Shown here: positions 31,233 to 49,633 of the stretch, piece after piece
Position numbering within the stretch: position 1 is the first letter of the stretch
Layout: the number at the start of each line of letters is the position of its first letter
Source of the DNA: Gemmatimonadales bacterium
GTDB lineage: Bacteria; Gemmatimonadota; Gemmatimonadetes; Gemmatimonadales; GWC2-71-9
Assembly (NCBI GenBank): GCA_025937755.1
Contig: JAICQR010000002.1
Location: 1-60,581, forward strand
Length of the DNA stretch: 60,581 nucleotides
Direction: 5' to 3'
Made by a program: the position numbers and the translations under genes
Notes under the pieces: model-generated
Databases searched by the model: none
Told to the model about the DNA's origin: nothing
What the model saw: the letters and a program-made list of their open reading frames with translations, nothing else

Positions 31233-31267
31233 GAGTCGCGAGTCACGCGGCTTGTGACTTGCAACTC
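31233..31267. terminator. hairpin between convergent genes, built on a tandem heptamer
   Basis: GCGAGTC x2 (31231-31244). Stem GAGTCGCGAGTCAC / GTGACTTGCAACTC (14 bp; 1 mismatch, 1 G:T), loop GCGGCTT. The right arm overlaps stop 31266-31268 of the minus-strand antiporter gene. Confidence 0.5.
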
Positions 31268-32597: not shown

Positions 32598-32598
32598 A

Positions 32599-33895: not shown

Positions 33896-35026
33896 CTAAA
33901 GCAATCGCCGGGACGCGAGCCCGAAGCGCTTGTGGTCGAGGAGGCGACTGATGGAGACACCCGGAACGTTCATCATCCCGTCCTTGCGAAGGGCCAGCTT
34001 GATGACGTCATGATTGCGGCCGAACCACCGCGCGCTCGGCTCGAGGTCCGAGGGATAGTCGAAGCCTGGCAGCGACGCGGCGGCCAGTGGCGCCTGGCTG
34101 CCGATGCCGGTCTCGGGCATGGTGCCGGCCCACAGCGTCGCACCACTCTCGCGCGCCAGCTTCCAGATCCGGATGACTTCACACAACCCGCCAACGCGAT
34201 GCACCTTGATGTTCCAGACCAGCGGGCCACCCAGCGCCAGCAGCTGCCGCGCGACACCGACGCTGGTCAGCGTCTCGTCCACACACACCGGCGTTGTCAG
34301 CGTCCGCGACAGTTCGGCGTGCCCCACAATCTCCTCAGGCGCCAGCGGCTGCTCGATGTAAAGCAGGCCGCACTGGTCCAGCTCGCGCAGCGCACGTTCG
34401 TGCTCAGGAAAGGCATAGGCCCCGTTGGCATCCACCGTGAGCGGAATGCCGGTGCCACGCAGAATGTCCTGGGTATGCCGCACCGGCTCGACGTCCCACC
34501 CCGGCATCACCTTGATCTTGACGCGCCGGTACCCGGCATCGAGCGCCTGCAGGACGCGGGCGCCCAGCGCATCGAGCGAGCGGTCGGCGGGAACGCCCAG
34601 GGCCACGCCACACGCGATGGCCCGGGCCGGCTGGACCCCCGCCGCCCCGGCCAGCAATTGCGCCATCCCGGTACCGGCACGCGCCGCCGCGAGGTCCCAC
34701 CCGGCGGTCTCGATCGCTGCCCTGGCAAAGGCATTGCCTCGCACATGCTGGCGCAGGGCGGCGTCTATCACATCCGGGCCGGTAAACTCCCGCCCACGGA
34801 CCCTCGGCAGCAGTACAGACTCCAGCATATGGCGCGCACTGCCAAGCGTTTCTTCCGAGTAGAACGGCAACTCGAACGGAGGTGCCTCGCCATAGCCCTG
34901 GTGTCCCGCATCGTCGCGCAGCACGACGATCAATGAACGGCGCTCGGTGATGGCCCCACCCGAGATGATGAATGGCTCCACCAGCGGGATGGCAACCTCG
35001 TGGAGTTCCACATCGTTGATCCTCAC
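33896..35026 (-). CDS. enolase-superfamily enzyme, o-succinylbenzoate synthase / N-acyl(succinyl)amino-acid racemase-like
   Basis: KxK motif RRVKIKVMPGWDVEP. Metal ligands in LTVDANGAY, LLYIEQPL and VCVDETL. Second catalytic Lys in NIKVHRVGG. Close in pattern to Amycolatopsis-type NAAAR/OSBS. Confidence 0.85.
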   Translation of the reverse strand: MRINDVELHEVAIPLVEPFIISGGAITERRSLIVVLRDDAGHQGYGEAPPFELPFYSEETLGSARHMLESVLLPRVRGREFTGPDVIDAALRQHVRGNAFARAAIETAGWDLAAARAGTGMAQLLAGAAGVQPARAIACGVALGVPADRSLDALGARVLQALDAGYRRVKIKVMPGWDVEPVRHTQDILRGTGIPLTVDANGAYAFPEHERALRELDQCGLLYIEQPLAPEEIVGHAELSRTLTTPVCVDETLTSVGVARQLLALGGPLVWNIKVHRVGGLCEVIRIWKLARESGATLWAGTMPETGIGSQAPLAAASLPGFDYPSDLEPSARWFGRNHDVIKLALRKDGMMNVPGVSISRLLDHKRFGLASRRLL

Positions 35027-36150
35027 GCGGCCACCAGGTCGCGGAATCGCAGTTCACCTCGGACGCGATGGAGCCTGCCCGCTTCCTCTTCCTCCAGCAT
35101 CACGGCAAGCAACCCGTCGGCGGGGTCGAACACAAGTTGATGCAGCGCGCGCGCGGTCCTGCTTCCCGCCTCGGCGGCGTATTCACCAAGTGGCAGCTGG
35201 AATAGTGTATGGCACTGCACGGTGGAGCACCCTGCTCGCGCGTAGGCCACCGCCTGGCGTCCGGACACGACATTGCCGGTGCCGGAACGCTCCTGGCCGC
35301 CGCGACTCACGCTCGCCAGCACCCGCAGGTTCCGGTCGGAGAGTTCCCACCCGCCATATGCCACCTGCCTCTCGTCGTCCCACAGCCGGTTGAACACGGT
35401 CACCGCACGGGCATCCGCAGCAGCGCGCAGCATGTCCGCCTGAAAGGCATCGTCAAATGTGGCATTCATCAGCTTGAGGCTGACATGAGCCGGGCCACCG
35501 GCGTGTCGCCGGATCAGCGCCGGCAATTCGCTGATCCAGCGAATCACAGCGTCCCGGCTCTGGCCCCGCGCGTCACCCGCCAGGGTGGGCGAGAGGTCAT
35601 GCTCCACCAGCATCGGCTCCGCGCCCCAGGCCGCCCGAACCGCACCGAGCGTGTGGGCGTACTCGGCCTCGCGAAATGCTTCGCCTGCCGGAGGCAGGTG
35701 CAGCTTGACCGATGGCAACACCAGCAGCCGGTCATCCCGTGTGAGCTGACGGCCCACCTGTATCAGCTCGCAGTACTCGGCCAGCGTGCCATCCCAGCCC
35801 CGCCCCTTCCATGTGACCGTCCAGCCGCAGCGGCCGTCGGCTGCATCCCGCCGCTCTACCGCCATCCGGGTTTCGTGGATGGCCCACGCGCCCATCGACC
35901 GCTCTCCCGCCGAGTCTTCGCCGATCACGGTCTTGAGCACGGCGAACGCCAGGCCGGCATCGGCATCGTGCTGAAGCTGCTCTGCCTTGAGTGACAGTTG
36001 CCCCGATGCCTTGCCGATCGGATGCGGCAGCGGCACGCCCATCAGGGACGTGGAGAGATCGAATCCATGGGTTGCCCGAAGCTGCGCGGCCCAGTCGTGC
36101 GGCCACTCCCGGCCGAGGCGCTCCCGTTCAGCCGAGAGCGTCAAGCGCAT
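35023..36150 (-). CDS. dihydroorotate dehydrogenase-like TIM-barrel protein (divergent)
   Basis: ORF 35023..36273 trimmed to M42 (MRLTLSAE). DHOD/DPD-like blocks PHPIGKASGQ, AVLKTV, VSLKLMN, YGGWELS and GTGNVVSGRQAVAYARAGCSTVQ. The usual NLSCPN block reads HDLSPTL. Confidence 0.6.
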   Translation of the reverse strand: MRLTLSAERERLGREWPHDWAAQLRATHGFDLSTSLMGVPLPHPIGKASGQLSLKAEQLQHDADAGLAFAVLKTVIGEDSAGERSMGAWAIHETRMAVERRDAADGRCGWTVTWKGRGWDGTLAEYCELIQVGRQLTRDDRLLVLPSVKLHLPPAGEAFREAEYAHTLGAVRAAWGAEPMLVEHDLSPTLAGDARGQSRDAVIRWISELPALIRRHAGGPAHVSLKLMNATFDDAFQADMLRAAADARAVTVFNRLWDDERQVAYGGWELSDRNLRVLASVSRGGQERSGTGNVVSGRQAVAYARAGCSTVQCHTLFQLPLGEYAAEAGSRTARALHQLVFDPADGLLAVMLEEEEAGRLHRVRGELRFRDLVAA

Positions 36151-37009
36151 CTCGTACCGCCGCGTCCACAACGTCGCGCTGAGCTGAGTCCAGCGGTGGG
36201 CCCCACGGGTCCTCGGTGGCGCTGGCCGGAAGCCAGCCGGTGGCGGCCGCCGCCCATAGCATCCTCTGCACATAGCCGGGCATCGGCTCGCAGAACGTCG
36301 CTTCGGCGAACCGGTCGACCGCCTTGCTCAACTCCATGAACCGGGCGGCATCGTGGGTCCGGTGGGCGTGCAGCAATTCAGCGCTCAGCTTCGGCACTGC
36401 AGCTCCCAGCCCGACCAGCGCCGCCTCGCCACCCGCCATCAGCGAGTAGCCGAGGAAGCGGTCCTCACCGGTAATGAGCAGCTTGTCGGCATGCTGGCGC
36501 ACCAGCCCGGCGAGCCGCTGGAAGGTCATGACCGAGTCGAGCGTCGCCACCTTGATGCCGATGATGGTCGGCAGTTCCAGGATCCGGTGGAGTGTGTCGT
36601 CGTCGTAGGCGACGCCACCGGCTTCCTGGTACAGCCAGAAGGCGATGCCCGGCAGCTCGCGGCTGAGACGGTCATGATGTGCGACTGGATCGGTGCGCTG
36701 GGGATGAATCAGCAGGGCATCGGCGTGCCGTCGGCGGGCCTCGATCGCGGACGTGATGTCGTGAGCGCCCGCGATGACCAGTTTGCCGGGAAGCGCGTCG
36801 CGCCAGGCGGTGATGACTGTACGGCGGTCCTCGGCGGCGAGATGCGGACCGCGGCCGGTGTGGGCCCAGACCGCCACACCGGCGATCGGCTCGGCGGCCA
36901 TCCGCTGGGCGTACGCCTCCTGCGCCGCGGCCTGCAGCGCGCCACCAGAGAACGGCACCGGCACCGCGGGCACCAGGCCGCCGCGAAGTCGCTCGGTCAG
37001 CGCGCTCAC
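36128..37009 (-). CDS. dihydrodipicolinate synthase/N-acetylneuraminate lyase-family (DapA-like) aldolase
   Basis: 293 aa. Class-I aldolase pattern with the putative Schiff-base Lys in IIGIKVATLD. The GTTGE block is replaced by AHTGRG. Confidence 0.75.
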   Translation of the reverse strand: MSALTERLRGGLVPAVPVPFSGGALQAAAQEAYAQRMAAEPIAGVAVWAHTGRGPHLAAEDRRTVITAWRDALPGKLVIAGAHDITSAIEARRRHADALLIHPQRTDPVAHHDRLSRELPGIAFWLYQEAGGVAYDDDTLHRILELPTIIGIKVATLDSVMTFQRLAGLVRQHADKLLITGEDRFLGYSLMAGGEAALVGLGAAVPKLSAELLHAHRTHDAARFMELSKAVDRFAEATFCEPMPGYVQRMLWAAAATGWLPASATEDPWGPPLDSAQRDVVDAAVRDALDALG

Positions 37010-37776
37010 CCGCCCAGCCCCTCCGCGTTGCCGTGTTCGATGGCGGCGCGCCGATCAGCATCGATGTCGAGCAGCTCCAGTCTCGCACCGGGGGTCTCGG
37101 GCAGCCGGAGCGGCTGACCGGAACCGAAGAGGAAGCGCGCTTCGCCGATGGCGCCGATGAGGTGCTCGAGGTGGTCCTCCGGCGGACCCCACACCCAGGA
37201 AATATCCCACCAGATCCGCGCCGATTCATCCGGCGTGGACCCGAAATGCACTTCCTCGATGAATCCGCGGTCGGCATGGGTGACGACCAGCCTGGCGGAC
37301 GGATGCGATCGGACCAGGGCGCGGACCGCAGCTGCGGGGAGCTCGGCGGCCACGTCCAATGGATGCCGCTGGCGTCCGTCTTCCAGCCGCACCGCCACCA
37401 TGAGTGGCAGAGCAGCCTGCGCAGACGCCGCCACCAGGTCGCGCATCGGCTGGCCGGATGGATCGATGTCGTGGAACATGGGGTCGACCCGGATCGCCAC
37501 CGCTCGCTGGGCCTTCGCGTGCGCTACTTCCTCTTCCCAGTGGGGCAACGCCGGCTGGATGGCAGGAACCGCGCGGAAACGGGGCTCTGCCTTGCACACC
37601 TGATACAGCCAGGGATTGCCTTCCATGGGATCGCGCCAGAACACCGAAGGCAGGTGCGACACCCATGCTCGCGTGATGTGGGTGCGATCCATCGCCTCGA
37701 GCAGCGCGTCCGGTGAGGTGCCGGGAACCTTGCGCCAGGGATAGCCCCCGAGCCACGCGTTGACGTCGATACGCAT
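37006..37776 (-). CDS. amidohydrolase-2-like TIM-barrel protein lacking the N-terminal HxH motif
   Basis: MRIDVNAWLG occupies the position where the paralog has IDVHVHF. Overall similarity to the PF04909-type fold. ATGA-type overlap downstream. Confidence 0.7.
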   Translation of the reverse strand: MRIDVNAWLGGYPWRKVPGTSPDALLEAMDRTHITRAWVSHLPSVFWRDPMEGNPWLYQVCKAEPRFRAVPAIQPALPHWEEEVAHAKAQRAVAIRVDPMFHDIDPSGQPMRDLVAASAQAALPLMVAVRLEDGRQRHPLDVAAELPAAAVRALVRSHPSARLVVTHADRGFIEEVHFGSTPDESARIWWDISWVWGPPEDHLEHLIGAIGEARFLFGSGQPLRLPETPGARLELLDIDADRRAAIEHGNAEGLGG

Positions 37777-38576
37777 CAGGCCTCCGGAAAGCTTCCAGCG
37801 GGAAAGATCCGCACGGCGTTGCCGTGGCGCACCAGGTCCAGTTCGGCTGGCGAAAGCAGATGTGCCAGGTAGCGCAGCTTGGCGAGGCCGGTGTCCATGG
37901 TGAGGTCGGTGCCCCAGAGCAGTCGTTCCGGCCCAACCGCAGCAACGCAGGCCTCCAGCATCCCGCCATCTACTCCGCTGCCGGAAAGATCGACCAGCAC
38001 GTTGGGTACGTGACGCACGGCGCGGAGCGAATGGAGCCAGTCGCCACCTCCGCCGATGTGAGCAAGGATGAATGACACCCCCGGGTGGCGCCGCGCCAGA
38101 CGGCAGAGCTCGATGGCGTCAGAGGCCTCCTGCCCCGGCATGTCGCGCCGCCGGTGCTGCCAGATGTGCTGCAGCACCGGGAAATGGTGCTCGGCGGCGA
38201 GATCGGCGACGCCGTCGAGCAGCGAGTCGTCAGCACGGCGGCTGGCTGCGAGCTTGATCCCGATCATGCCCCCGGCGACACCCCGCGCGATTTCGCTTGT
38301 GACCTGGCCGGGATAGTTGGGGTTGACCAGGACGTACCCGCGCACCAGATGCGGATGCTCGCTGACGATCCGGCGCTGCTCCTCGTTGGCGAGGGTCACG
38401 TCCGCCTGTGAGGGGAAGTAGATGGGCGAGCGCAGCCCCCAGGTGCCAAGGATCGAGGACACGTGCCACGTGATCCCGATCCGCTCACCTGCGCGGATCC
38501 GGCTTTCATTCCGTGCGCGCCAGTCCCGCCGGGGCGTCAGGGAATGCAGGAAATGGACGTGGACGTCTATCAGCAT
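37776..38576 (-). CDS. amidohydrolase-2 family metal-dependent hydrolase
   Basis: MLIDVHVHFLH (HxH), ILAHIGGG, and LLWGTDL (Asp ligand). Confidence 0.8.
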   Translation of the reverse strand: MLIDVHVHFLHSLTPRRDWRARNESRIRAGERIGITWHVSSILGTWGLRSPIYFPSQADVTLANEEQRRIVSEHPHLVRGYVLVNPNYPGQVTSEIARGVAGGMIGIKLAASRRADDSLLDGVADLAAEHHFPVLQHIWQHRRRDMPGQEASDAIELCRLARRHPGVSFILAHIGGGGDWLHSLRAVRHVPNVLVDLSGSGVDGGMLEACVAAVGPERLLWGTDLTMDTGLAKLRYLAHLLSPAELDLVRHGNAVRIFPAGSFPEA

Positions 38577-38612
38577 TTTGCTGGCTTCATCTCATTCCCA
38601 GGATGGACTTCA

Positions 38613-38763
38613 CCACGGAGCCACGGAGGACACGGAGTTATCGAGCTATGGCGAGATCGCGCTGTCGTTTTTGTGGCTGTGCCGCAGGCTACGCCGCCTG
38701 GCGCATGCCTCCCACCACAATAGGCTGTTCTCCGTGAGTCTCTGTGTTCTCTGTGTCTCTGTG
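38613..38763 (+). repeat. octamer-periodic inverted-repeat element B
   Basis: Left arm CCACGGAG CCACGGAG GACACGGAG (38613-38637), then a 92-nt spacer with internal short stems. Right arm CTCCGTGAG TCTCTGTGT TCTCTGTG TCTCTGTG (38730-38763), ending 1 nt before stop codon 38765-38767 of the aminotransferase gene. Confidence 0.85.
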
Positions 38764-38764
38764 G

Positions 38765-39931
38765 TTAACTCACCGCCCTCAGCGCGTCGTCCAGCACGGC
38801 GAGAGCCTCCGCTATAACGGCATCGGTGTGCGCGAGGGACACGAAGTTCCACGGCGTCCGCTTGAAGATGAGCCCGCGACGGGCGCACTCCAGTGCCACC
38901 CGGGCACCGGCGTCCTCATCCACCCACTCGAAGGCACACATCACCGGGATGCCCGTGACCTGGCGGATCACCGCCGGGTGCCGCTGCGCGAGACGGGTCA
39001 TGCCTTCATGCAGCGCTGCACCCGCCCGTGCCAGCGTCGCCGGGACATTGCCGGACCGCACGGTCTTGATGGTGGCGTGCGCCGCCGCCAGCGACATGAA
39101 CTCGGTGGCGAGGGTCGAGCTGATCCATGTCTTCCCGATTGCCGCCATGGCCTCGTCGGTCCCGCCGACCGCTGCGAGCGGCATTCCGTTGGCGATGGCC
39201 TTGCCGACTACCACCAGATCCGGCTCCCCACCCCAGCGTTCAGTGGCTCCGCCCGGCGCCACTCGGCACACGGTCTTCACCTCATCGAAGATGAGCTGGG
39301 CGCCCACCCGGCGGGTCTCCTCGCGCACAGTCTTGAGCCACTCCACCGTTGGCTCGGTGTGAATGACCGGCTCCAGCACCACGGCGGCCAGCTGCTCCGC
39401 CGTGGTACGGATGGCCACCCGGCTGGCATCGACGTCATTGAACGGCACTGGCGATGCGAGCGTTCCGAGCGCGCGCGGAACGCCGGCCGCACCAGCATCC
39501 TGGCTCCAGTCCAGCCAACCATGGTAGCCGCAGGTGAGGACTCGCTCGCGCCCAGTCGTGATTCGCGCCAGCCGCACCGCGGCCGCCACGGCCTCGGCGC
39601 CGGTCTTGAGGAAGCGCCACCGCGGATGCGCGGGAAAGAGCGCCGCGAGGTCCGCGGCGACGGTCTCCTCCAACTCGGGCGCCACCGGCCCCACGCCGCC
39701 AGCCTCAGCGGCGGCACATACGGCCGCCACCACTGCCGGATGACCGTAGCCAAGGGACACCGCGCCAAGCCCCATGACGAAGTCGACGTACTCCCGGCCC
39801 CGCACATCGACGATGGTGCAACCCGCAGATCGGCGCAGCAGTCCCGGCGCGGCATCGTCGTTGGCATACCGGCCGTAGAGCGCCCGACGCGTCTTGCTGC
39901 CGGTGGATGTCTCACCCGCAATGTGGGACAT
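38765..39931 (-). CDS. class-III (GSA-aminomutase-like) PLP aminotransferase
   Basis: ORF 38765..40012 trimmed to M28 (MSHIAGETS). DFVMGLGAVSLGYGHP, KTGAEAV, IFDEVKT, and VVGKAIANG (PLP Lys). Confidence 0.85.
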   Translation of the reverse strand: MSHIAGETSTGSKTRRALYGRYANDDAAPGLLRRSAGCTIVDVRGREYVDFVMGLGAVSLGYGHPAVVAAVCAAAEAGGVGPVAPELEETVAADLAALFPAHPRWRFLKTGAEAVAAAVRLARITTGRERVLTCGYHGWLDWSQDAGAAGVPRALGTLASPVPFNDVDASRVAIRTTAEQLAAVVLEPVIHTEPTVEWLKTVREETRRVGAQLIFDEVKTVCRVAPGGATERWGGEPDLVVVGKAIANGMPLAAVGGTDEAMAAIGKTWISSTLATEFMSLAAAHATIKTVRSGNVPATLARAGAALHEGMTRLAQRHPAVIRQVTGIPVMCAFEWVDEDAGARVALECARRGLIFKRTPWNFVSLAHTDAVIAEALAVLDDALRAVS

Positions 39932-42654
39932 CAGGTGAGCTCGAGCACGCCGAGCCTGGATGCGTCCTGCCGGTCTCCCCGGAGCCAGACCCAGCCGCCA
40001 CCACCGCTCCACGTAAGCTGGCCCGCGCGCCGCTCGCGGCCCGAGCGCATCTCATTGACGATCAGGTCGAAGCGAAGCTTCCGGGCAAGCACCACATCGT
40101 TCCAGAAGGGCGGGGCCAGGGCCATCGTCACCCGATAGCCATCGTCGGTCTCCGTCCAGGCGGCCGATGCTTCCACCGGTGCAGCGGCCGCGAGTCCGAC
40201 TGGCCGCATGCGTACGGTACCGCCCGGCTCAGGCACCATGAGCACACCCCAGTGCCCTCCCGCGCCGTCGCCAACGTGGACCTGGATGCCGTCCGAGTGG
40301 ATATCATCGGGCTCGTTGTCGAGTTCCAGCGCCGGCGCGTCGGCCGGGCGGAACCACAGTTGGTCCTTCCGGACGTCCACCGCGACGTACAGCGCATCAA
40401 TATCCCAGTTGACGAATGCCACGGCACCAAAGACTTCGGCGCCGGGATACGGCTCCTCGCTCCGCCGGTACTGATCGTCGTGATCGATGTGGAGCAACTC
40501 GCCATCGTCAAAGCCGTCCATGCTGCCATCGAGCGTCGGTGGCTCGGGCACGTGGAGCGCAACACCGCGCTCGGGCTCCTTCCGGTTGCGGGTCACCAGT
40601 GGCTCGAACTCGACCACCTTGGCCCTCCGTCCGCCGAGCTGCACGGTGCCGGTGGCGGTAGCGACCTGCCATCCGTCGCTCACTTCAGCGTGGAGATCCT
40701 CGCCACGACCGAGGCTGACCTTGACGCTGGCTCCTGCGACTGCGAGGTCGGTCACGGTGCGGGCCGGCGCCAGCACCGCAGCAAGCGACAATCCCCGACC
40801 GCTGATGGCTACCAGGTAGAAAGTCGCCTCGGGTGCACCGGGAACGCCGGGGGCGACTGCACGGAGCAGCGTGGTGCCTGCAGGGAGCACCAGGTCCAGC
40901 TCAGCGCCATCGCGGACTGCGCGGATCACCAGCGGACCCGGCGCCTCGGGGACGAAGTGCGCACCGTCGTGGGTGAACTCGCCCGGCACCTCCTCGGGCT
41001 CCCACCGACCTCCGTTGACCACGCGCGTTTGTCCTGCCAGATGCCAGGGCAGGTGGAGCAGATGTGGCTCGGCGCCTGCCAGTTGCACCAGGTCGAGCAC
41101 GTAATCGGGAGCGGTCACCACGGTGCGGGTGAGATCGCCCCATTCCCCGCGGCCCCAGGCCCAGCCGTCGCTGCCGACGTCGAAAGCCCGGACGTCCGCG
41201 TGAGCAAAGGACTGGGACGTGCCGTCCAGCATCGGCGCATTGTGCGCCAGCGTGCTCCGATACCAGAAGAGATCGCGCTGCAGGTACGATCCGGTGCCGG
41301 GATCAGGCAGCCAGTGGACGCCGGCGTCATGCAGCGTCAAGTGCAGCCGGTCGGGGTGGCCGTGGCCACTTGCCCAGGGGCCGCCCTCCAGGGACACATA
41401 GCGGTCTTCATGTCGCAGCACGATGAGCCCTGCCTCTTCGAGCAGGGTGCTCTCCGCTGCGACGCCCCCTTCCTCCTCGGCGAGCTCCGCCAGCCCCATC
41501 AGCATCGCGTTCCATGAGAGTGACGCGCGAGAGCGATGTTCCGAGATAGGCAGTCCCGCTTCGTACAGCCAGGAGTCAAATTCCAGTGCCGGCTGACCTG
41601 GCTCGGAGTACAGCTCACGCAGCCACTGCTGCATCCCCTCCACCTCGGCGCCTTCCCTGCCGTCGAGCAGGCCGAGCCCCACTTCCCAGAGTTCGAGATA
41701 CATCGGCTGGCCCAGCGAAACGCCGTAGCGCGCGTCCTGGCGGGCGGGAAAGGTTCGATCAGGCAGCGCCGTCAGCATTGGAGCGCGCAAGGCCAGCGAG
41801 AGCCGCGTCGCCAGCGCCGCATCCGCCAGCACGTCGACGCCGGCCTGTCCGGCCCACCGGATTCCGCGCTGCATCCCCTGGAGAGAGAAGAGGTGATAGT
41901 TCTCGCCCTCGTGCCAGGTGCCGTCGGTGCCGAAGCCATGGGCCAGGTGGGCCAGAAGACCGACGTCGCTCTCGATGGCGCGCGCGGCGAGTTCTTCGTC
42001 CTCGAACCAGCATGCCACCGCGGCGAGCGCGGCGTTGTGCCACACCTGCCGATTGGAGAAGCCTTCGTTGAACTCCCCGATCAACGCGGCTGATTCATCG
42101 GCAATCCGGTCCACGATGCCGACCAGCCGCTCTTCCAGCACGCCGGCATCCCGCAGCAGGAACGCCGCAGACAGGAGGTCGGTGATCCAGATCGATTCCA
42201 GATAGGTGGAGAAGAAGAGCCGCGCAGGGCCGAGCACGTTGTCGAGGTTGGGATACTGATCGTATCCCGCGTAACTCTCGATGACCCGGGTGGCGCCGCG
42301 CACCAGTGCGTCGTCGCCGGACAAAAGTCCGGTTGCGGCGAACTGTGCGGCCTGGGCCGCGGCCCACAGATGCTGAAAGCGCGCGAAGAAGCGACGCTGG
42401 CGCTCGCCCCCCTCGGTCGTGCCGCATGCGGAGCAGCGAAACCAGTTGGGCGCCCATGGATCGAACTGCAGAGATGCGCCGTCCCGGGGGCAGGCCGCAC
42501 CGTTCCGGGAAAGCAGCGCCTTGTCCTTTGGGATGGCGATGCCGCGCTGGAGCACAGCCGCGGACCGCTCGTGCAAGCTCGTACGCAGCGCCGAGAGATC
42601 GGACGATGCTTCGATCAACGCATCGCGCTGCGCCAGGTCTTCTGCCGTTACCAT
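39931..42654 (-). CDS. heparinase II/III-like (alginate-lyase fold) protein with Cys4 ribbon and C-terminal CBM9-like domain
   Basis: ORF 39931..42762, start moved to M37 (alternative M31). CPRDG...CSACG; HEGENYHLF; GHGHPDRLHL (Hepar_II_III-like); C-terminal FVNWDIDALYVAVDVRKD. Confidence 0.75.
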   Translation of the reverse strand: MVTAEDLAQRDALIEASSDLSALRTSLHERSAAVLQRGIAIPKDKALLSRNGAACPRDGASLQFDPWAPNWFRCSACGTTEGGERQRRFFARFQHLWAAAQAAQFAATGLLSGDDALVRGATRVIESYAGYDQYPNLDNVLGPARLFFSTYLESIWITDLLSAAFLLRDAGVLEERLVGIVDRIADESAALIGEFNEGFSNRQVWHNAALAAVACWFEDEELAARAIESDVGLLAHLAHGFGTDGTWHEGENYHLFSLQGMQRGIRWAGQAGVDVLADAALATRLSLALRAPMLTALPDRTFPARQDARYGVSLGQPMYLELWEVGLGLLDGREGAEVEGMQQWLRELYSEPGQPALEFDSWLYEAGLPISEHRSRASLSWNAMLMGLAELAEEEGGVAAESTLLEEAGLIVLRHEDRYVSLEGGPWASGHGHPDRLHLTLHDAGVHWLPDPGTGSYLQRDLFWYRSTLAHNAPMLDGTSQSFAHADVRAFDVGSDGWAWGRGEWGDLTRTVVTAPDYVLDLVQLAGAEPHLLHLPWHLAGQTRVVNGGRWEPEEVPGEFTHDGAHFVPEAPGPLVIRAVRDGAELDLVLPAGTTLLRAVAPGVPGAPEATFYLVAISGRGLSLAAVLAPARTVTDLAVAGASVKVSLGRGEDLHAEVSDGWQVATATGTVQLGGRRAKVVEFEPLVTRNRKEPERGVALHVPEPPTLDGSMDGFDDGELLHIDHDDQYRRSEEPYPGAEVFGAVAFVNWDIDALYVAVDVRKDQLWFRPADAPALELDNEPDDIHSDGIQVHVGDGAGGHWGVLMVPEPGGTVRMRPVGLAAAAPVEASAAWTETDDGYRVTMALAPPFWNDVVLARKLRFDLIVNEMRSGRERRAGQLTWSGGGGWVWLRGDRQDASRLGVLELT

Positions 42655-43658
42655 GTCCGCACCCCTTCCCATGACCACTCGACCGGCAGCAGGCTGCTGC
42701 CCTCTGCTTCCAGGACCCGCGCCACGTCCCGCTCGCGTCCAGGCGCAAGGAATACCATGCATCCGCCTGCGCCGGAACCGGCCGCCTTGGCACCGATGGC
42801 CCCGGCCGCACGGGCACGGGCCTCCAATGCTCCCATCAACGGTGTGCGCATCCCGGCGTCCAGTTCCTGCTGGTGGCGCCAGTTGGCATCGAGTGCCGCG
42901 CCGACTGCGGCGAGATCGGCAGCAAGGAACGCCGCGATCATCGCGTCCGCGGCATCACGAAGTCCGTGCAGTGCCGCGTTGATGCCGCGCTCGCCTCGCT
43001 CATACGCCTGCATCACGCGCGTGATAGTGCCGCCCGACAGGCGCGACGCTCCGGTCCAGCAGAGCACCAGACTCCGAGCCAGTTCGGCGGCGAATTCGCG
43101 ATCAACCGCAATCGGATGGTGACCCACGTCAGGATCGCGGAACGTCAGGTCCTGAAAGCCGCCCAGCGCAGCCATGTACTGGTCCTGCTTCCCACCGGGA
43201 ATGGCTGCGTCCCGGGTCTCCAGTTCCCACGCGACGTGCGCCAGGTCCCTCGCGCCGAGTTGCTCGCCTCGTGCATGCAGCAGCGCTGCCGCGACGGCCA
43301 CACTGCATGCCCCGCTGGAGCCGAGTCCCGAGCCCTGTGGCACGTCGGTGCGCGAGGTGATGGTCGCGGGGCCCGGCGGCCAGCGCAGAACCGCGGCCTC
43401 CAGCAGGGGCACGTGGCCCGTCCCCGCCCGCGTCCCACCATCCTCGAGCGTCACGGTGGCGCCCAGGTCTTCCGCCACCAGGTGCACACCATCGCCGCCC
43501 GGGAGCACGTTGACGTGGGCATGCAGCGCCAGGGCCGCGGAGATCACTCGGCCGCCTTCTCGAGTCGAGAACGGCGGTACGTCGGTCCAGGCGCCGGCAA
43601 AGTCGATGCGGACCGGCGCCGACGCATGCGCGCGCCGGCTGCTCACTCGGTGCTCCAC
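42648..43658 (-). CDS. GHMP-family sugar kinase
   Basis: GTG start. APVRIDFAGAWTDV and the GHMP motif PQGSGLGSSGACSVA. Confidence 0.8.
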   Translation of the reverse strand: MEHRVSSRRAHASAPVRIDFAGAWTDVPPFSTREGGRVISAALALHAHVNVLPGGDGVHLVAEDLGATVTLEDGGTRAGTGHVPLLEAAVLRWPPGPATITSRTDVPQGSGLGSSGACSVAVAAALLHARGEQLGARDLAHVAWELETRDAAIPGGKQDQYMAALGGFQDLTFRDPDVGHHPIAVDREFAAELARSLVLCWTGASRLSGGTITRVMQAYERGERGINAALHGLRDAADAMIAAFLAADLAAVGAALDANWRHQQELDAGMRTPLMGALEARARAAGAIGAKAAGSGAGGCMVFLAPGRERDVARVLEAEGSSLLPVEWSWEGVRTW

Positions 43659-45079
43659 CGCGCGACCGTCGGCAGTTCCCCCCGCAGGTCCATCCGTACG
43701 TGATGCACCCGTCGATTCATCCCTTGCAGCCCCTGGGCATGATAGAGAAAGACGACCGGCACCAGTTCGGCGAACCGTTCCACAAGATCGGCGGTAGCGG
43801 CTGGCGCTGGCAATCCTGAAAGCTGGTAGAGCGGACCAAGGTGCCCCAGCTGCGGATCGCCCGGCACGCCGAGCACTGCGGCATCGAAATCATGTACCCC
43901 GCCATGCACCCGCTCCAGGAACGCCGACAGCTCGAGCTGGCGAATGCGTACCTCGAACCCGGCCCTGGCGAGCTGGGCCTGGAGCAGCTGCTCCAACGCG
44001 GCTTCGCCCGATCCGACGGTGAGGAGTTCGAATGAGATGGGCGGCTCGGCGGCTCGGCGGTTCGGCGACTCGGCGGCTGGGCGGCTCGGCGGCTCGGCGG
44101 CTCGGCCCTCGAGTGAAGGTGGCATGGGGCTGGCGCTGGGCGTGCCGAAGCCGAAGAGGTAGCCGTTGACGATCTCGTCGCGATCGACGGCAGCGGCCAG
44201 GCGCTTTCGGGTTGTGAGGTCGTCAAACGGCGGCCGCCGCGTGTTGAGCACGATGGAATACGAGAACAGCAATGGATACGTCACCACCGCCAGTTCGGGA
44301 TTGCGTCGCACGAATTCCGCGTGGGCCGGCTGAATCCCGGCGAAGTCGAGCTCTCCGCTGGTGAGCGCGGCCAGCTTGGTCATCGGCTCATCCACCACGA
44401 CCACGATAAAGCGCTCCAAGGCAGGCGGGCCACCCAGCGACGCCGGAAAATCGGGATTCCGTTCGAACACCCAGCGCCGATTGGGTTCATGCGCCACGAA
44501 CCGAAAGGGCCCGTTGCCCACCGGCTGCTCGTTGAATGCGGCGCGGCGGAGCGCGCCATGGGGAACGCTGCCGAGCAGGTGCCGCGGCAGCACCGCCAGG
44601 TCGGTGAGGACGTCCGGCATGCCTGTTTGGGGCTGGGTGAACTCGAGCATCAGGGTTGAGTCGTCCCGCGCTTCGCTGTGGCGAAGCTGAGCCAGCTCCG
44701 CCAGCCGAGGATATCCCGTGGCCGGGTCGCGCGCCGCAGCGAGGGTCCAGGCAGCGTCATGCGCGGTCGTGAACGGTCCGTCATGCCAGCGCAGGTCGGT
44801 CGAAATCGTCAGCGTCAGCGTCGTCCGGTCGGGCGACCACTCCCACGTCCGGGCCAGATAGGGAGATACCTGCATGGCGCTGTCATACCGCACCAGCGTC
44901 GTGAAGAGCACGTAGCGCTGCACCTGCCGGGCGAGCGGATGGAGCGTGAGGAGCGGGTTGATGCTCTGGAGATCGGCACCCGACGCAAACATCACGCTGT
45001 CAGATCGTCGATCCGCCACCGAGCCGCACCCCCAGGCGGCGAGTGCCAGCAGCGCCAGAGCGCGGTAGCTTTGGCCCAT
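43643..45079 (-). CDS. ABC transporter substrate-binding lipoprotein, family 5 (peptide/nickel/oligosaccharide type)
   Basis: ORF 43643..45502 trimmed to M142 (MGQSYRALALLALAAWGC, lipobox). LRWHDGPFTTAHD and VGNGPFRF are typical of SBP_bac_5. Confidence 0.85.
   Translation of the reverse strand: MGQSYRALALLALAAWGCGSVADRRSDSVMFASGADLQSINPLLTLHPLARQVQRYVLFTTLVRYDSAMQVSPYLARTWEWSPDRTTLTLTISTDLRWHDGPFTTAHDAAWTLAAARDPATGYPRLAELAQLRHSEARDDSTLMLEFTQPQTGMPDVLTDLAVLPRHLLGSVPHGALRRAAFNEQPVGNGPFRFVAHEPNRRWVFERNPDFPASLGGPPALERFIVVVVDEPMTKLAALTSGELDFAGIQPAHAEFVRRNPELAVVTYPLLFSYSIVLNTRRPPFDDLTTRKRLAAAVDRDEIVNGYLFGFGTPSASPMPPSLEGRAAEPPSRPAAESPNRRAAEPPISFELLTVGSGEAALEQLLQAQLARAGFEVRIRQLELSAFLERVHGGVHDFDAAVLGVPGDPQLGHLGPLYQLSGLPAPAATADLVERFAELVPVVFLYHAQGLQGMNRRVHHVRMDLRGELPTVARWSTE
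44041..44104 (-). repeat. 8 x 8-nt tandem array (GCGGCTCG consensus, + strand) inside the SBP coding sequence
   Basis: Units at 44041, 44049, 44057 (GCGGTTCG), 44065 (GCGACTCG), 44073 (GCGGCTGG), 44081, 44089 and 44097. Translated on the minus strand as RAAEPPSRPAAESPNRRAAEPP. Confidence 0.9.
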
Positions 45080-49512: not shown

Positions 49513-49633
49513 GCGATCTCAGGCCCGTCCGCGCAATCTCGTGAGTTTACAAATCGGAACAACCTTCCTACAGTTGTTGACGTTCCCATGTGACAGGCGT
49601 TGCTCGTGGCCTCGCTTGCCAGGATTCCCGCCC

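What the first reader, a model, noticed from the sequence alone, without database searches (positions are those of the whole stretch)
33896..45079. Tightly coupled operon with an enzyme combination that matches no pathway I can name
Order on the minus strand: family-5 SBP, GHMP sugar kinase, heparinase II/III-like protein with a CBM9-like domain, class-III aminotransferase, element B, two amidohydrolase-2 proteins, DapA-like aldolase, DHOD-like TIM barrel, and an OSBS/N-succinylamino-acid-racemase-like enolase. Junction overlaps are 16, 7, 1, 1, 4, 23 and 4 nt. Divergent ABC permeases and a GH38 mannosidase flank it. The set mixes glycan-active modules (lyase-like, kinase, mannosidase) with amino-acid-type chemistry (racemase, aminotransferase, aldolase, amidohydrolases). 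A working hypothesis is uptake and breakdown of an amino-acid- or amino-sugar-decorated glycan or glycopeptide, but substrate and logic are unknown.
Basis: inference. Interest (0 to 1): 0.6.

Follow-up and report, generated by a model that had tools for sequence, protein, structure and literature searches.

The report
Conserved Gemmatimonadales acidic-glycan breakdown cluster
A soil Gemmatimonadales bacterium carries a real, widely inherited gene cluster that most likely imports an acidic, mannose-bearing sugar fragment and breaks it down inside the cell by a route matching no described pathway; the substrate is still unknown.

Summary
Nine minus-strand genes (33896-45079) have the stated families and junction overlaps. 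Two divergent permeases and a GH38 gene flank them.

The cluster is conserved. The core is the transporter, a lyase-like protein (HEP), a class-III aminotransferase, two Amidohydro_2 proteins and usually GH38. It is syntenic in 20 of 20 sampled relatives. HEP and the first amidohydrolase occur in the same 143 of 301 Gemmatimonadota genomes. The DapA-like/DHOD-like/enolase trio is an optional add-on: it is in 61 genomes, all of which have the core.

- **HEP:** it folds like PL17 exo-oligoalginate lyases and keeps most of their aligned catalytic and zinc residues. It has no signal peptide.
- **Enolase:** it belongs to the NSAR/OSBS family but is not MenC, because relatives use the futalosine route.
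- **Missing standard genes:** five near-complete relatives lack Eda, KduI, GH88/105 and KdgD. A lyase product would therefore need a non-canonical route.

Outside this phylum, the DapA-like/DHOD-like pair sits with M20 deacylases, GNATs and peptidases.

The substrate and the chemistry after the lyase step are inferred, not shown. Earlier follow-ups in this scan reported the same cluster on other Gemmatimonadales DNA.

The parts
43643..45079 (-). Family-5 solute-binding lipoprotein (478 aa from the ATG at 45079). This is the uptake component.
   Evidence: PF00496 E=1.4e-56. The N-terminus ALLALAAWGC looks like a lipobox. The nearest solved relatives are OppA, AgaA and NikA-type binders, E 1e-24 to 1e-22, which does not indicate a ligand. 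Syntenic in 19 of 20 relatives; the twentieth locus ends at a contig end.
42648..43658 (-). GHMP sugar kinase, probably an anomeric (C1) kinase for a manno- or fuco-configured sugar.
   Evidence: PF00288 and PF08544. The best solved relatives are heptose kinases 3k85 (1e-37) and 4n3o/4usk, then fucokinase. Its HddA equivalog score is far below the cut-off. It was not detected in 4 of the 20 loci.
39931..42654 (-). HEP: a cytoplasmic PL17-like uronate lyase-like protein (907 aa) with an N-terminal Cys-rich insert and a C-terminal beta-sandwich (weakly CBM9-like).
   Evidence: PF07940. AlphaFold model pLDDT 84.7. Foldseek's top matches are PL17 Alg17c, 7bjt, 9irq and 8bdd, E about 1e-19 to 1e-20, TM 0.65-0.71. 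A profile search against PDB gives PL17 at E=1e-18 with aligned catalytic and zinc residues. Invariant residues are listed. Present in 143 of 301 genomes of the phylum.
38765..39931 (-). Class-III (fold-type I) PLP aminotransferase, 388 aa.
   Evidence: PF00202 E=6e-48. It is nearest to glutamate-1-semialdehyde aminomutases (2e-39), then to aminoglycoside C-6' aminotransferases and ω-transaminases. All NCBIfam equivalog scores are far below their cut-offs. Syntenic in 20 of 20 loci.
38577..38764 (.). 188-nt intergenic 'element B', the only gap in the gene string.
   Evidence: Heptamer-type arms are visible in the sequence. The predicted fold is not significantly more stable than shuffled sequence (z=-1.5). 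It is not part of the conserved cluster: relatives have 0-45 nt at this junction.
37776..38576 (-). AH2a: a metal-dependent PF04909 (Amidohydro_2) TIM-barrel enzyme and the most conserved protein of the cluster.
   Evidence: PF04909 E=3e-21. Residues H6, H8, K108, H137, H173 and D224 are invariant. Model pLDDT 88. The nearest folds are 3cjp (uncharacterised), gamma-resorcylate decarboxylase, ACMSD, LigW, L-fuconolactonase, LigY and LigJ. Present in 144 of 301 genomes, the same set as HEP plus one.
37006..37776 (-). AH2b: a PF04909 paralogue without the HxH motif. It is either a partner subunit or a metal-independent enzyme.
   Evidence: PF04909 at 32 bits. No HxH in any of 21 orthologues, but D4, H177, D191 and twelve arginines are near-invariant. 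It always directly follows AH2a.
36128..37009 (-). DapA/NAL-family class-I aldolase-like protein (accessory module).
   Evidence: PF00701 at 29 bits against a cut-off of 22.1. The DapA equivalog scores 30.5 against 206. GIKVAT (K153) and Y127 sit where the Schiff-base Lys and the Tyr lie in DHDPS, by inspection. It pairs with the DHOD-like gene in many phyla.
35023..36150 (-). DHOD-like FMN TIM-barrel protein of a small family with no Pfam model of its own (accessory module).
   Evidence: It matches no Pfam family above threshold. Only 258 clusters (at 50% identity) among 1.84 billion representatives match it. Conserved motifs are GKASGQ, LKT, E-x-D-x-SP, K226, NR, YGG and G-x-G. Present in 61 of 301 genomes, all of them HEP-positive.
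33896..35026 (-). NSAR/OSBS-family enolase-superfamily enzyme (accessory module). It is not a menaquinone MenC.
   Evidence: TIGR01928 at 221 bits against a cut-off of 200.65. PDB matches: 3mwc 8e-79, NAAAR 2zc8 and 1r0m 1e-64 to 1e-67. K170/K172, D199, E225, D250, K274 and R277 are present. No MenD or MenB was found, and MqnC is present in relatives.
45078..46052 (+). ABC permease 1 (Dpp/Opp type), divergent from the binding-protein gene.
   Evidence: PF00528 E=9e-36 and PF19300. Syntenic in 19 of 20 loci.
46049..46888 (+). ABC permease 2 (Dpp/Opp type). No ATPase gene lies in the locus.
   Evidence: PF00528 E=9e-27. Syntenic in 19 of 20 loci.
46915..49512 (-). Cytoplasmic GH38 α-mannosidase-family protein.
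   Evidence: PF01074, PF09261 and PF17677. The N-terminus HLISHTHWDREWY carries the metal motif, and there is no signal peptide. It is within the fetched locus in 13 of 20 relatives. In two genomes of one genus (L032, L033) it is co-directional directly after the enolase gene.

Best explanation
This is a conserved cytoplasmic catabolic cluster for an imported acidic (uronate-containing), α-mannoside-bearing oligosaccharide. It is built from modules.

**Proposed steps (all inferred unless marked).**
1. The family-5 lipoprotein and two permeases take up the fragment. The ATPases are encoded elsewhere.
2. GH38 removes α-mannosyl residues.
3. HEP is a remote PL17-like enzyme that keeps most of the PL17 catalytic and zinc residues. 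It cleaves a linkage to the O4 of a uronate by β-elimination, probably exolytically. The fold and the aligned residues are shown; the activity is inferred.
4. The GHMP kinase traps a released neutral sugar as its 1-phosphate.
5. The 4-deoxy-5-keto-uronate, or a related carbonyl or amino product, is processed by the class-III aminotransferase and the AH2a/AH2b pair. AH2a/AH2b are PF04909 enzymes whose nearest folds are decarboxylases, lactonases and hydratases. These relatives lack Eda, KduI, GH88/105 and KdgD, so these enzymes would stand in for the usual KduI/KduD-KdgK-Eda route.
6. In about 40% of carriers, including this genome, an add-on branch extends the pathway. It comprises the DapA-like aldolase/dehydratase, the DHOD-like flavoenzyme, the NSAR/OSBS-type enolase and, in some genomes, a DAO-type oxidase. 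It is formally reminiscent of the Gli-Gci-KdgD oxidative uronate route.

The substrate identity and steps 4-6 are inference.
For: - **Families and tight coupling:**
- **Synteny:** the core is syntenic in 20 of 20 loci, down to 33-40% HEP identity. In one genus GH38 is co-directional directly after the enolase gene.
- **Co-distribution:** HEP is in 143 and AH2a in 144 of 301 genomes. These are the same genomes, with shared absence from several genera within the family.
- **Nested add-on:** the DHOD-like gene is in 61 genomes, all inside the HEP-positive set. It was not found anywhere in 10 core-only genomes.
- **HEP:** Foldseek and a profile search both point to PL17. Residues aligned to Alg17c (HEP = Alg17c): N201 = N201, Y253 next to Y258, GHGHPD = GHGHFD, D451 = D433, Y457 = Y450, H471 = H464.
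- **AH2a:** the fold neighbours act on unsaturated keto-dicarboxylates or sugar lactones. AH2b has many conserved arginines, which suits an anionic substrate.
- **Kinase:** it is nearest to manno-heptose and fucose anomeric kinases.
- **Missing canonical genes:** no Eda, KduI, GH88/105 or KdgD above cut-off in five genomes that are 95-99% complete.
- **Habitat:** the organism occurs in soil and rhizosphere metagenomes of several studies.
- **Expression:** short contigs of a soil metatranscriptome lie in AH2b, the aminotransferase and HEP. This is a weak hint only.
Against: - **No assay:** no enzyme here has been tested, and no close characterised homologue exists for HEP, AH2a/b, the DapA-like or the DHOD-like protein.
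- **HEP differences from PL17:** the carboxylate-neutralising His202 of Alg17c is Arg in HEP. The catalytic Tyr is offset by one column in the profile alignment. Identity to PL17 is only 14-16%. The same fold also houses C5-epimerases (6hzn).
- **No oxidoreductase in the core:** there is no obvious way to reach central metabolism from aminotransferase plus AH2a/b alone.
- **Interrupted in relatives:** housekeeping or unrelated genes interrupt the block. A SpoU methylase lies between HEP and the aminotransferase. PQQ, two-component and ABC-2 genes lie between the aminotransferase and AH2a.
- **Add-on context elsewhere:** in other phyla the DapA-like/DHOD-like/enolase module lives without any lyase, in proteolytic Firmicutes next to M20, GNAT and peptidase genes. 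That fits an amino-acid-type substrate better than a uronate.
- **Enolase subgroup:** the enolase is in the NSAR/OSBS subgroup, not a known sugar-acid or lactone subgroup.
Confidence: 0.5

Rival explanations
1. Glycopeptide or amino-acid-decorated glycan. The transporter imports a glycan fragment that carries an N-acylated, D-configured or cyclic amino acid. Examples are a uronic acid amide-linked to an amino acid, a muropeptide or teichuronic-type wall fragment, or a hydroxyproline glycopeptide. HEP and GH38 strip the sugars. AH2a/b deacylate and the aminotransferase deaminates. The enolase racemises the N-acyl amino acid. The DapA-like and DHOD-like enzymes degrade the resulting (imino) acid, by analogy with epimerase / D-amino-acid oxidase / DapA-family deaminase logic in hydroxyproline catabolism.
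For: - The enolase meets the NSAR/OSBS family cut-off and keeps K-x-K, the D/E/D ligands, K274 and the R266-equivalent R277. It is not MenC.
- Outside the phylum the module sits with an M20 deacylase in Firmicutes and Paenibacillus, a GNAT in C. malenominatum and Pyrinomonadaceae, and an S15 X-Pro peptidase, a ROK regulator, a NagB-like protein and a GH123-like protein in Pyrinomonadaceae. Carriers include proteolytic taxa such as Proteiniborus and Tissierellaceae.
- A DAO-family oxidase is inserted between the DapA-like and DHOD-like genes in some Gemmatimonadales.
- A class-III aminotransferase paired with a deacylase is a recurring pattern in amino-acid metabolism (ArgD/ArgE, DapC/DapE, AstC/AstE, DoeD/DoeB). 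This rests on established knowledge, not on a test here.
- The transporter is of the peptide/opine (family-5) type.
Against: - AH2a's structural neighbours are decarboxylases, lactonases and hydratases, not N-acyl-amino-acid hydrolases.
- The window has no GNAT, M20 or peptidase.
- The enolase, DapA-like and DHOD-like genes are missing from about 60% of core carriers, so they cannot be essential to the core substrate.
- No amidase, peptidase or amino-sugar gene (NagA/NagB/NagK) is in any of the 20 Gemmatimonadales loci.
Confidence: 0.25
2. Inherited neighbourhood rather than one pathway. Two or three independent units would stay adjacent mainly by descent in this order and serve different substrates. 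The units are (i) transporter, kinase, HEP and GH38; (ii) the aminotransferase; (iii) AH2a/AH2b with or without DapA-like, DHOD-like and enolase.
For: - Unrelated genes are tolerated inside the block. A SpoU methylase lies between HEP and the aminotransferase in the more distant loci. An 8.7-kb insert of PQQ, two-component and ABC-2 genes lies between the aminotransferase and AH2a. Alternative-complex-III genes lie directly after AH2b.
- The DapA-like/DHOD-like/enolase unit occurs on its own in other phyla.
- Sampled genomes are kin, so conserved order overstates independent support.
Against: - HEP and AH2a are present in the same 143 genomes and absent together from whole genera inside an otherwise positive family (g5, g8, g12, g15, g16 and 7 of 11 genomes in g11). 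This points to repeated joint loss.
- The DHOD-like gene is never found without the core in 301 genomes.
- Start/stop overlaps of 1-23 nt link the units in this genome.
- Order is kept although protein identity has fallen to 33-60%.
Confidence: 0.17
3. Biosynthetic or housekeeping roles: the enolase as the menaquinone MenC, the DapA-like and DHOD-like proteins as a lysine/diaminopimelate pathway variant, or the aminotransferase as HemL.
For: - TIGR01928 (o-succinylbenzoate synthase) is passed.
- The set DapA-like, class-III aminotransferase, deacylase and N-succinyl racemase formally resembles the succinylase branch of the diaminopimelate pathway.
- The aminotransferase is nearest to HemL.
Against: - No MenD or MenB above cut-off in the window's genome (80% complete), and no MenD above cut-off in five 95-99% complete relatives. 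MqnC of the futalosine route is above cut-off in all five.
- Canonical dapA, and canonical or (in the one Gemmatimonadales relative tested, G165) sub-cut-off dapB, are found elsewhere in that relative and in four Firmicutes that carry the pair.
- HemL and DapA equivalog scores are far below their cut-offs.
- The module is absent from most genomes of the phylum.
Confidence: 0.03

Closest known systems
ABC-importer-coupled cytoplasmic exolytic oligo-uronate lyases of family PL17 (Alg17c of Saccharophagus degradans, AlyA3 of Zobellia galactanivorans, Bacteroides ovatus PL17)
   Same: - HEP has the same two-domain fold, an (α/α)6 toroid plus a β-sandwich. PL17 entries are the best structural and profile matches.
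- The aligned Asn, Tyr, GHGH-x-D, Asp, Tyr and His positions are conserved across HEP orthologues.
- HEP is cytoplasmic and linked to an oligosaccharide importer.
   Different: - Identity is only 14-16%.
- Arg replaces the carboxylate-neutralising His202.
- HEP has an extra Cys-rich N-terminal insert and a roughly 200-aa C-terminal domain.
- Its neighbours are GH38, a GHMP kinase, an aminotransferase and PF04909 proteins, not DehR/KdgK/Eda. Those canonical genes were not found in five near-complete relatives.
- An α-mannosidase has no role in alginate use.
Oxidative D-galacturonate/D-glucuronate pathway of Agrobacterium tumefaciens (Udh, Gli, Gci, KdgD, α-ketoglutarate-semialdehyde dehydrogenase)
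   Same: The same three superfamilies occur side by side:
- a PF04909 lactone-handling enzyme (Gli is a LigI-like Amidohydro_2 protein);
- an enolase-superfamily enzyme (Gci);
- a DapA-family enzyme (KdgD).

This comparison rests on established knowledge of that pathway.
   Different: - The cluster has no Udh-type SDR and no aldehyde dehydrogenase.
- The DapA-like protein does not match the KdgD model. The orthologue in G127 scores E=3e-4, and nothing exceeds the cut-off.
- The enolase is in the NSAR/OSBS subgroup.
- A DHOD-like flavoenzyme and a class-III aminotransferase have no counterpart in that pathway.
- The trio is optional here.
NSAR-based irreversible D- to L-amino-acid conversion operon (Geobacillus kaustophilus: GNAT succinyltransferase, NSAR, M20 desuccinylase) and the related DgcN/DgcA D-glutamate route
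   Same: - The enolase is an NSAR/OSBS-family member with the full catalytic set.
- In other phyla its orthologues sit next to M20 and GNAT genes.
   Different: - The window has no GNAT and no M20.
- The partners DapA-like and DHOD-like are not part of the known operon.
- The cluster here is tied to a lyase-like protein, a mannosidase and a sugar kinase.
Xanthan-type side-chain breakdown loci (lyase + GH88 + GH38 α-mannosidase)
   Same: It combines a uronate lyase with a GH38 mannosidase acting on an imported acidic, mannose-containing oligosaccharide. The comparison comes from my own knowledge and was not tested here.
   Different: - No PL8 lyase.
- No GH88/GH105 anywhere in five relatives.
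- No β-glucosidase or phosphorylase genes.
- Different downstream enzymes.

Membership tests
PL17 polysaccharide lyases | Two-domain fold: (α/α)6 toroid plus antiparallel β-sandwich | tested here: met
   AlphaFold model pLDDT 84.7. The ten best Foldseek matches are all PL17, E about 1e-19 to 1e-20, TM (target) 0.65-0.71.
PL17 polysaccharide lyases | Catalytic and zinc residues of Alg17c (N201, H202, Y258, Y450; H415, D433, H464) | tested here: inconclusive
   In the profile alignment, N201, GHGHPD, D451, Y457 and H471 align and are invariant. H202 is Arg in HEP, and the Tyr of E-G-x-N-Y-H is one column away from Y258.
PL17 polysaccharide lyases | Sequence similarity sufficient for family assignment | tested here: inconclusive
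   The single sequence gives only E=0.002 to 9irq. The orthologue profile gives E=1e-18 over two partial stretches. Identity is 14-16%. This is more likely a new, related family.
PL17 polysaccharide lyases | β-eliminative cleavage of oligo-uronates | not testable with these tools
   Needs an enzyme assay.
NSAR/OSBS family (enolase superfamily, MLE subgroup) | Family model above its curated cut-off, with closest relatives being NSAR/OSBS enzymes | tested here: met
   TIGR01928 at 221 bits against 200.65. PDB matches: 3mwc 8e-79, 2zc8 9e-67, 1r0m 1e-64.
NSAR/OSBS family (enolase superfamily, MLE subgroup) | K-x-K, D/E/D metal ligands, second catalytic Lys, and Arg three residues after it | tested here: met
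   K170/K172, D199, E225, D250, K274 and R277, read from the translation. Assigned by motif position, not by structural superposition.
MenC (o-succinylbenzoate synthase of menaquinone synthesis) | The genome uses the classical Men pathway | tested here: not met
   No MenD, and no MenB above cut-off, in the window's genome. No MenD above cut-off but MqnC above cut-off in 5 of 5 relatives.
Amidohydro_2 (PF04909) | Pfam model above the gathering score | tested here: met
   AH2a scores 76.8 bits and AH2b 32.2 bits against a cut-off of 26.4.
Amidohydro_2 (PF04909) | HxH on strand 1, plus His and Asp metal ligands | tested here: met
   AH2a: H6, H8, H137, H173 and D224 are invariant. AH2b does not meet this feature: it has no HxH in any of 21 orthologues.
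DHDPS/NAL class-I aldolase family (PF00701) | Pfam model above cut-off, plus the Schiff-base Lys | tested here: met
   29 bits against 22.1. K153 lies in GIKVAT and Y127 in WLYQE, by inspection. The DapA equivalog is not met (30.5 against 206). KdgD is not met.
Dihydroorotate dehydrogenase family (PF01180) | Pfam model above cut-off | tested here: not met
   E=0.015 and 14.9 bits against 27. The C. malenominatum orthologue passes at 30.9 bits. This is a small sister family of 258 clusters. It works like a DHOD-type FMN barrel by motifs, but membership is not shown.
Class-III aminotransferases (PF00202) / HemL | Pfam model above cut-off; HemL equivalog above cut-off | tested here: met
   PF00202 at 163.9 bits against 30.5. 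HemL is not met: 184-194 bits against cut-offs of 486-527.
GH38 α-mannosidases | N-terminal catalytic, middle and C-terminal domains | tested here: met
   PF01074, PF09261 and PF17677, all above cut-off. Substrate specificity was not tested.
Agrobacterium oxidative uronate pathway | Udh, Gli, Gci, KdgD and KGSADH all present | tested here: not met
   Only the superfamilies of Gli, Gci and KdgD are represented. No SDR and no aldehyde dehydrogenase lie in the locus. The KdgD model is not matched.

The most novel reading that the evidence does not exclude
The cluster encodes an undescribed route for unsaturated or keto-uronates. A class-III aminotransferase and a heteromeric PF04909 pair (one metal-dependent, one HxH-less and arginine-rich) would replace KduI/KduD/DehR-KdgK-Eda. 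They would channel uronate carbon through amino or imino-acid-like intermediates. An optional branch uses a new DHOD-like flavoenzyme family, a DapA-like enzyme and an NSAR/OSBS-type enolase recruited to non-racemase chemistry. HEP would found a new polysaccharide-lyase family specific for a mannose/uronate heteroglycan of soil origin.
Probability: 0.2. Interest if true: 0.75.

Novelty: new variant of a known kind. Interest (0 to 1): 0.55.

Why it matters
Gemmatimonadales are abundant in soil and rhizosphere but are barely characterised physiologically. This cluster is one of their most widely kept catabolic loci: about half of the sampled genomes of the phylum carry it, all within one order. 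If the reading is right, three things follow.

- **A niche substrate:** it would define an acidic mannose-containing glycan, perhaps from plant or microbial cell walls, as a resource for the group.
- **A new lyase family:** it would add a family related to PL17.
- **New downstream chemistry:** it would show how unsaturated uronates are used by bacteria that lack the Entner-Doudoroff aldolase and the KduI/KduD steps.

It would also assign first functions to a DHOD-like family with no Pfam model. That family is spread across Firmicutes, Acidobacteriota, Planctomycetota and Verrucomicrobiota. Finally, it would give a non-MenC, possibly non-racemase, role to NSAR/OSBS enzymes.

If instead the cluster turns out to be a loose neighbourhood of unrelated modules, it is ordinary.

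Tried and rejected
Neighbourhoods were rebuilt with the genome search, the fetch from genomes and tblastn instead.

**Readings tested and rejected.**
- The enolase as MenC.
- The DapA-like/DHOD-like pair as a housekeeping lysine pathway. Canonical dapA, and dapB (below the cut-off in G165), lie elsewhere.
- The aminotransferase as HemL.
- The conserved 440-aa protein next to the module in Firmicutes as an enzyme. It has a GGDEF-like middle region and a C-terminal winged-helix tail, so it is probably a regulator.

**Transcription evidence.**
- Three 'METAGENOMIC RNA-Seq' runs give flat cover of about 10x, including intergenic DNA. I treat them as DNA.
- One true soil metatranscriptome gives only short contigs inside AH2b, the aminotransferase and HEP.
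- Neither co-transcription nor induction can be claimed.

**Scans that told nothing.**
- The σ70 promoter and terminator scans were at shuffle level.
- The element B hairpin is not significantly stable.
- Literature searches found nothing on this gene combination. Two searches failed on term syntax.

**Other dead ends.**
- My first GC3-based gene caller was unreliable on the lower-GC relatives. I replaced it with tblastn mapping.
- I considered several specific substrates: ManNAcA-type teichuronic acids, plant GIPC head groups, arabinogalactan-protein glycopeptides, nonulosonic acids, opine-like conjugates and ectoine- or dihydropyrimidine-like rings. None is supported over the others by the data, so none is claimed.

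Full report
**1. The observation**

The window is contig C31 of a 2.3-Mb metagenome-assembled genome that is 80% complete. Its closest protein matches are named Gemmatimonadales.

| Junction | Overlap |
|---|---|
| SBP / kinase | 16 nt |
| kinase / HEP | 7 nt |
| HEP / aminotransferase | 1 nt |
| aminotransferase / AH2a | 188-nt gap (38577-38764) |
| AH2a / AH2b | 1 nt |
| AH2b / DapA-like | 4 nt |
| DapA-like / DHOD-like | 23 nt |
| DHOD-like / enolase | 4 nt |

These come from the ORF list. Orthologue lengths and tblastn boundaries support the start sites. Pfam and NCBIfam confirm the families. Two labels are softer than stated:
- The DHOD-like protein matches no Pfam model above threshold here (PF01180 E=0.015).
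- The CBM9-like C-terminal domain of the lyase-like protein scores only E=0.028.

Two Dpp/Opp-type permeases are transcribed divergently, and the first start codon overlaps the SBP start. A GH38 gene converges on them. No ABC ATPase gene lies in the locus. Every gene of the cluster is single-copy in the assembly.

**2. Conservation**

- **HEP distribution:** the 907-aa lyase-like protein (HEP) has thousands of relatives in metagenomes, and the named ones are all Gemmatimonadales. In an even sample of 301 genomes of the phylum it occurs in 143. That is 95 of 125 in the window's family, 44 of 69 and 3 of 3 in two sister families, and none in nine other families.
- **Synteny:** I fetched about 20 kb around HEP in 20 genomes spanning 57% down to 33% HEP identity and mapped the window's proteins on them.
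  - The order permease2-permease1 / SBP-(kinase)-HEP-aminotransferase-AH2a-AH2b is kept in all 20. One locus is cut by a contig end.
  - GH38 lies within the fetched stretch in 13.
  - In two genomes of one genus (L032, L033), GH38 is co-directional directly after the enolase gene.
- **Co-distribution:** AH2a occurs in 144 of the same 301 genomes. These are the same 143 plus one, with identical genus tallies. Both are absent from five genera of the window's family and from 7 of 11 genomes of another genus. In most genomes AH2a lies on the same contig within 2-12 kb of HEP.
- **Add-on trio:** the DapA-like/DHOD-like/enolase trio is next to the core in 8 of the 20 loci. The DHOD-like gene occurs in 61 of the 301 genomes, all of them HEP-positive. 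It was not found anywhere in ten core-only genomes that are 92-100% complete.

The tallies include two or three unpublished genomes (G057, G182; also G157). No conclusion depends on them, and none of the loci I analysed comes from them.

**3. The block is modular**

- In the more distant loci a SpoU-type methylase sits between HEP and the aminotransferase, and alternative-complex-III genes follow AH2b.
- In two genera an 8.7-kb insert separates the aminotransferase from AH2a. It carries a histidine kinase, a σ54 response regulator, PqqB/C/E and an ABC-2 exporter. A DAO-family oxidase sits between the DapA-like and DHOD-like genes.
- The single tight operon is therefore a property of this genome. 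The conserved unit is a cluster of modules.
- The two membrane-protein genes after the enolase gene (32599-33867 and 31266-32699, the latter a Na/H-exchanger type) were not seen in other genera's loci.

**4. The parts**

- **HEP:** it has no signal peptide. Its AlphaFold model (pLDDT 84.7) matches PL17 exo-oligoalginate lyases best (Alg17c, AlyA3, AlgL17, B. ovatus PL17; E about 1e-19 to 1e-20, TM 0.65-0.71). More remote matches are PL15, PL12, PL21, PL33, PL40 and dermatan-sulfate epimerase. A profile of 19 orthologues finds the same PL17 entries by sequence at E=1e-18.
  - Invariant HEP residues align with Alg17c residues as follows: N201 with N201, GHGHPD with GHGHFD, D451 with D433, Y457 with Y450 and H471 with H464.
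  - His202 is replaced by an invariant Arg.
  - The invariant Tyr of E-G-x-N-Y-H lies one column from Tyr258.
  - HEP therefore works like a PL17-type lyase as far as sequence and fold can show. It is too remote (14-16% identity) to be filed in PL17.
- **GH38:** it has the N-terminal metal motif and no signal peptide.
- **Kinase:** it is nearest to manno-heptose kinases and fucokinase, which are anomeric sugar kinases.
- **Aminotransferase:** it is nearest to glutamate-1-semialdehyde aminomutases, then to aminoglycoside C-6' aminotransferases and ω-transaminases. It is far below every equivalog cut-off.
- **AH2a:** it is the best conserved protein of the cluster (55-78% identity across the order). 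H6, H8, K108, H137, H173 and D224 are invariant. Its model (pLDDT 88) is nearest to an uncharacterised clostridial protein. Next come γ-resorcylate decarboxylase, ACMSD, LigW, L-fuconolactonase, LigY and LigJ. The family name 'amidohydrolase' therefore does not imply amide hydrolysis.
- **AH2b:** it lacks HxH in all 21 orthologues but keeps D4, H177, D191 and twelve arginines. That fits an anion-binding partner subunit or a metal-independent enzyme.
- **Enolase:** it passes the NSAR/OSBS model and has the complete catalytic set. The window's genome shows no MenD or MenB. Five 95-99% complete relatives have MqnC but no MenD. It is therefore not the menaquinone enzyme.
- **DapA-like protein:** it passes PF00701 only narrowly. 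It keeps the Lys and Tyr positions by inspection and matches neither DapA nor KdgD models.
- **DHOD-like protein:** it belongs to a small family of 258 clusters (at 50% identity) among 1.84 billion representatives. The family has DHOD-type FMN-barrel motifs.

**5. The add-on module elsewhere**

A scan of one genome per species found the DHOD-like family in several groups:
- Firmicutes, including the cultured Clostridium malenominatum, Desnuesiella massiliensis and Wansuia hejianensis, plus Proteiniborus and Tissierellaceae genomes;
- four Paenibacillus species;
- Pyrinomonadaceae and other Acidobacteriota;
- Planctomycetota, Verrucomicrobiota, Sumerlaeota and a Cytophagia genome.

The DapA-like gene is adjacent in most of these loci, and the enolase gene is often near. 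HEP, the aminotransferase and AH2a/b are not detected there. Typical contexts are:

| Group | Gene context |
|---|---|
| Clostridia | enolase, probable regulator, DapA-like, DHOD-like, M20 peptidase, Nramp-type transporter; a GNAT lies nearby in C. malenominatum |
| Paenibacillus | sugar ABC transporter, GFO/IDH/MocA oxidoreductase, xylose-isomerase-like barrel, regulator, M20, DHOD-like, DapA-like, aldo-keto reductase |
| Pyrinomonadaceae | S15 peptidase, ROK regulator, DapA-like, DHOD-like, GNAT, NagB-like, SSF transporter, GH123-like, β-helix protein, xylose-isomerase-like barrel, 2-hydroxyacid dehydrogenase, enolase |

Canonical dapA, and canonical or (in G165) sub-cut-off dapB, lie elsewhere in these genomes. 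The contexts point to an N-acylated or otherwise N-substituted amino-acid or amino-sugar-acid substrate for the module.

**6. What is missing**

Five near-complete relatives that carry the cluster have none of the following above cut-off:
- KDPG aldolase (Eda);
- KduI;
- GH88/GH105;
- KdgD.

The controls for these searches matched in model genomes. If HEP releases unsaturated uronates, the standard routes for them are not available. The co-inherited aminotransferase and AH2a/AH2b are the obvious candidates for an alternative route.

**7. Occurrence and expression**

The stretch 36000-45000 is held almost completely by soil, rhizosphere, terrestrial and sediment metagenomes of six studies. Three of those runs may be the source of this DNA. 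Laid contigs show no evidence of co-transcription. A soil metatranscriptome contributes only short contigs inside AH2b, the aminotransferase and HEP, and the other 'RNA-Seq' runs behave like DNA.

**8. Interpretation**

| Reading | Confidence |
|---|---|
| Importer-linked cytoplasmic pathway for an acidic, α-mannoside-bearing oligosaccharide. A PL17-like lyase and GH38 depolymerise it, a GHMP kinase captures a neutral sugar, and aminotransferase plus AH2a/AH2b process the uronate-derived product non-canonically. An optional branch adds DapA-like, DHOD-like and the enolase. | about 0.5 |
| The substrate carries an amino-acid or amino-sugar-acid moiety that the 'amino-acid-type' enzymes handle | about 0.25 |
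| The modules are neighbours by descent only | about 0.17 |
| Housekeeping roles | largely refuted |

No paper in the library searched describes this combination. Earlier follow-ups of this scan reached similar general conclusions on other Gemmatimonadales DNA. I treated those as leads only.

- the exact co-distribution figures;
- the nested distribution of the add-on module;
- its contexts in cultured Firmicutes and Paenibacillus;
- the aligned PL17 residues;
- the AH2a fold neighbours;
- the absence of Eda, KduI, GH88 and KdgD in near-complete relatives.

**9. Verdict**

This is a real, conserved and uncharacterised catabolic cluster. I rate it a new variant of a known kind (an oligosaccharide utilisation locus). 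It contains several enzyme families without a characterised member. The substrate and the downstream chemistry remain open.

Noticed in passing
window 38577-38764: The 188-nt 'element B' is the only gap in the gene string. Relatives have 0-45 nt at this junction. Its long hairpin is not significantly more stable than shuffled sequence (z=-1.5). Several metatranscriptome contigs match up to the aminotransferase stop codon and then diverge, at 38763-38771.
   Followed up: partly
window 43680-44313 (octamer array at about 44041-44104 inside the SBP gene): Summed contig depth jumps from about 10 to 440-500 in this bin in three runs. One contig shows a 33-nt 'goes back' joint at 44103/44071. The GCGGCTCG-type repeat is therefore shared by many other sequences in the samples and may vary in copy number.
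   Followed up: no
L133 4192-13017; also L134 and L135: In two genera an 8.7-kb insert separates the aminotransferase from AH2a. It carries a histidine kinase, a σ54 response regulator, PqqB/PqqC/PqqE-like genes, an ABC-2 exporter and a Yip1-domain protein.
   Followed up: partly
L133 644-1891 (between the DapA-like and DHOD-like genes): A DAO-family FAD oxidase (415 aa) is part of the add-on module in some Gemmatimonadales but is absent from the window.
   Followed up: partly
L041 11203-11961; L046 7759-8514; L049 7467-8336: A SpoU-type RNA methyltransferase gene sits between HEP and the aminotransferase in more distant relatives. A cytochrome c7 gene and a molybdopterin/4Fe-4S oxidoreductase gene (alternative-complex-III-like) follow AH2b.
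   Followed up: partly
L055 7513-8859; L076 7366-8721: A conserved protein of about 440 aa without a Pfam family accompanies the DapA-like/DHOD-like module in Firmicutes and Paenibacillus. It has a GGDEF-like middle region and a C-terminal winged-helix-like tail, so it is probably a dedicated regulator.
   Followed up: partly
window 32599-33867 and 31266-32699: Two polytopic membrane proteins lie 28 nt downstream of the enolase gene. The second is a Na/H-exchanger type. They look co-transcribed here but are not part of the cluster in other genera.
   Followed up: partly
genomes G165, G198, G191, G142, G127: These Gemmatimonadales use the futalosine (Mqn) route to menaquinone. They lack a recognisable Entner-Doudoroff aldolase (Eda), KduI and GH88/105.
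   Followed up: partly
window 49499-50692: A response-regulator/HD-GYP-type gene diverges from GH38. A homologue follows GH38 in one distant locus (L047). This is a possible but untested regulatory link.
   Followed up: no
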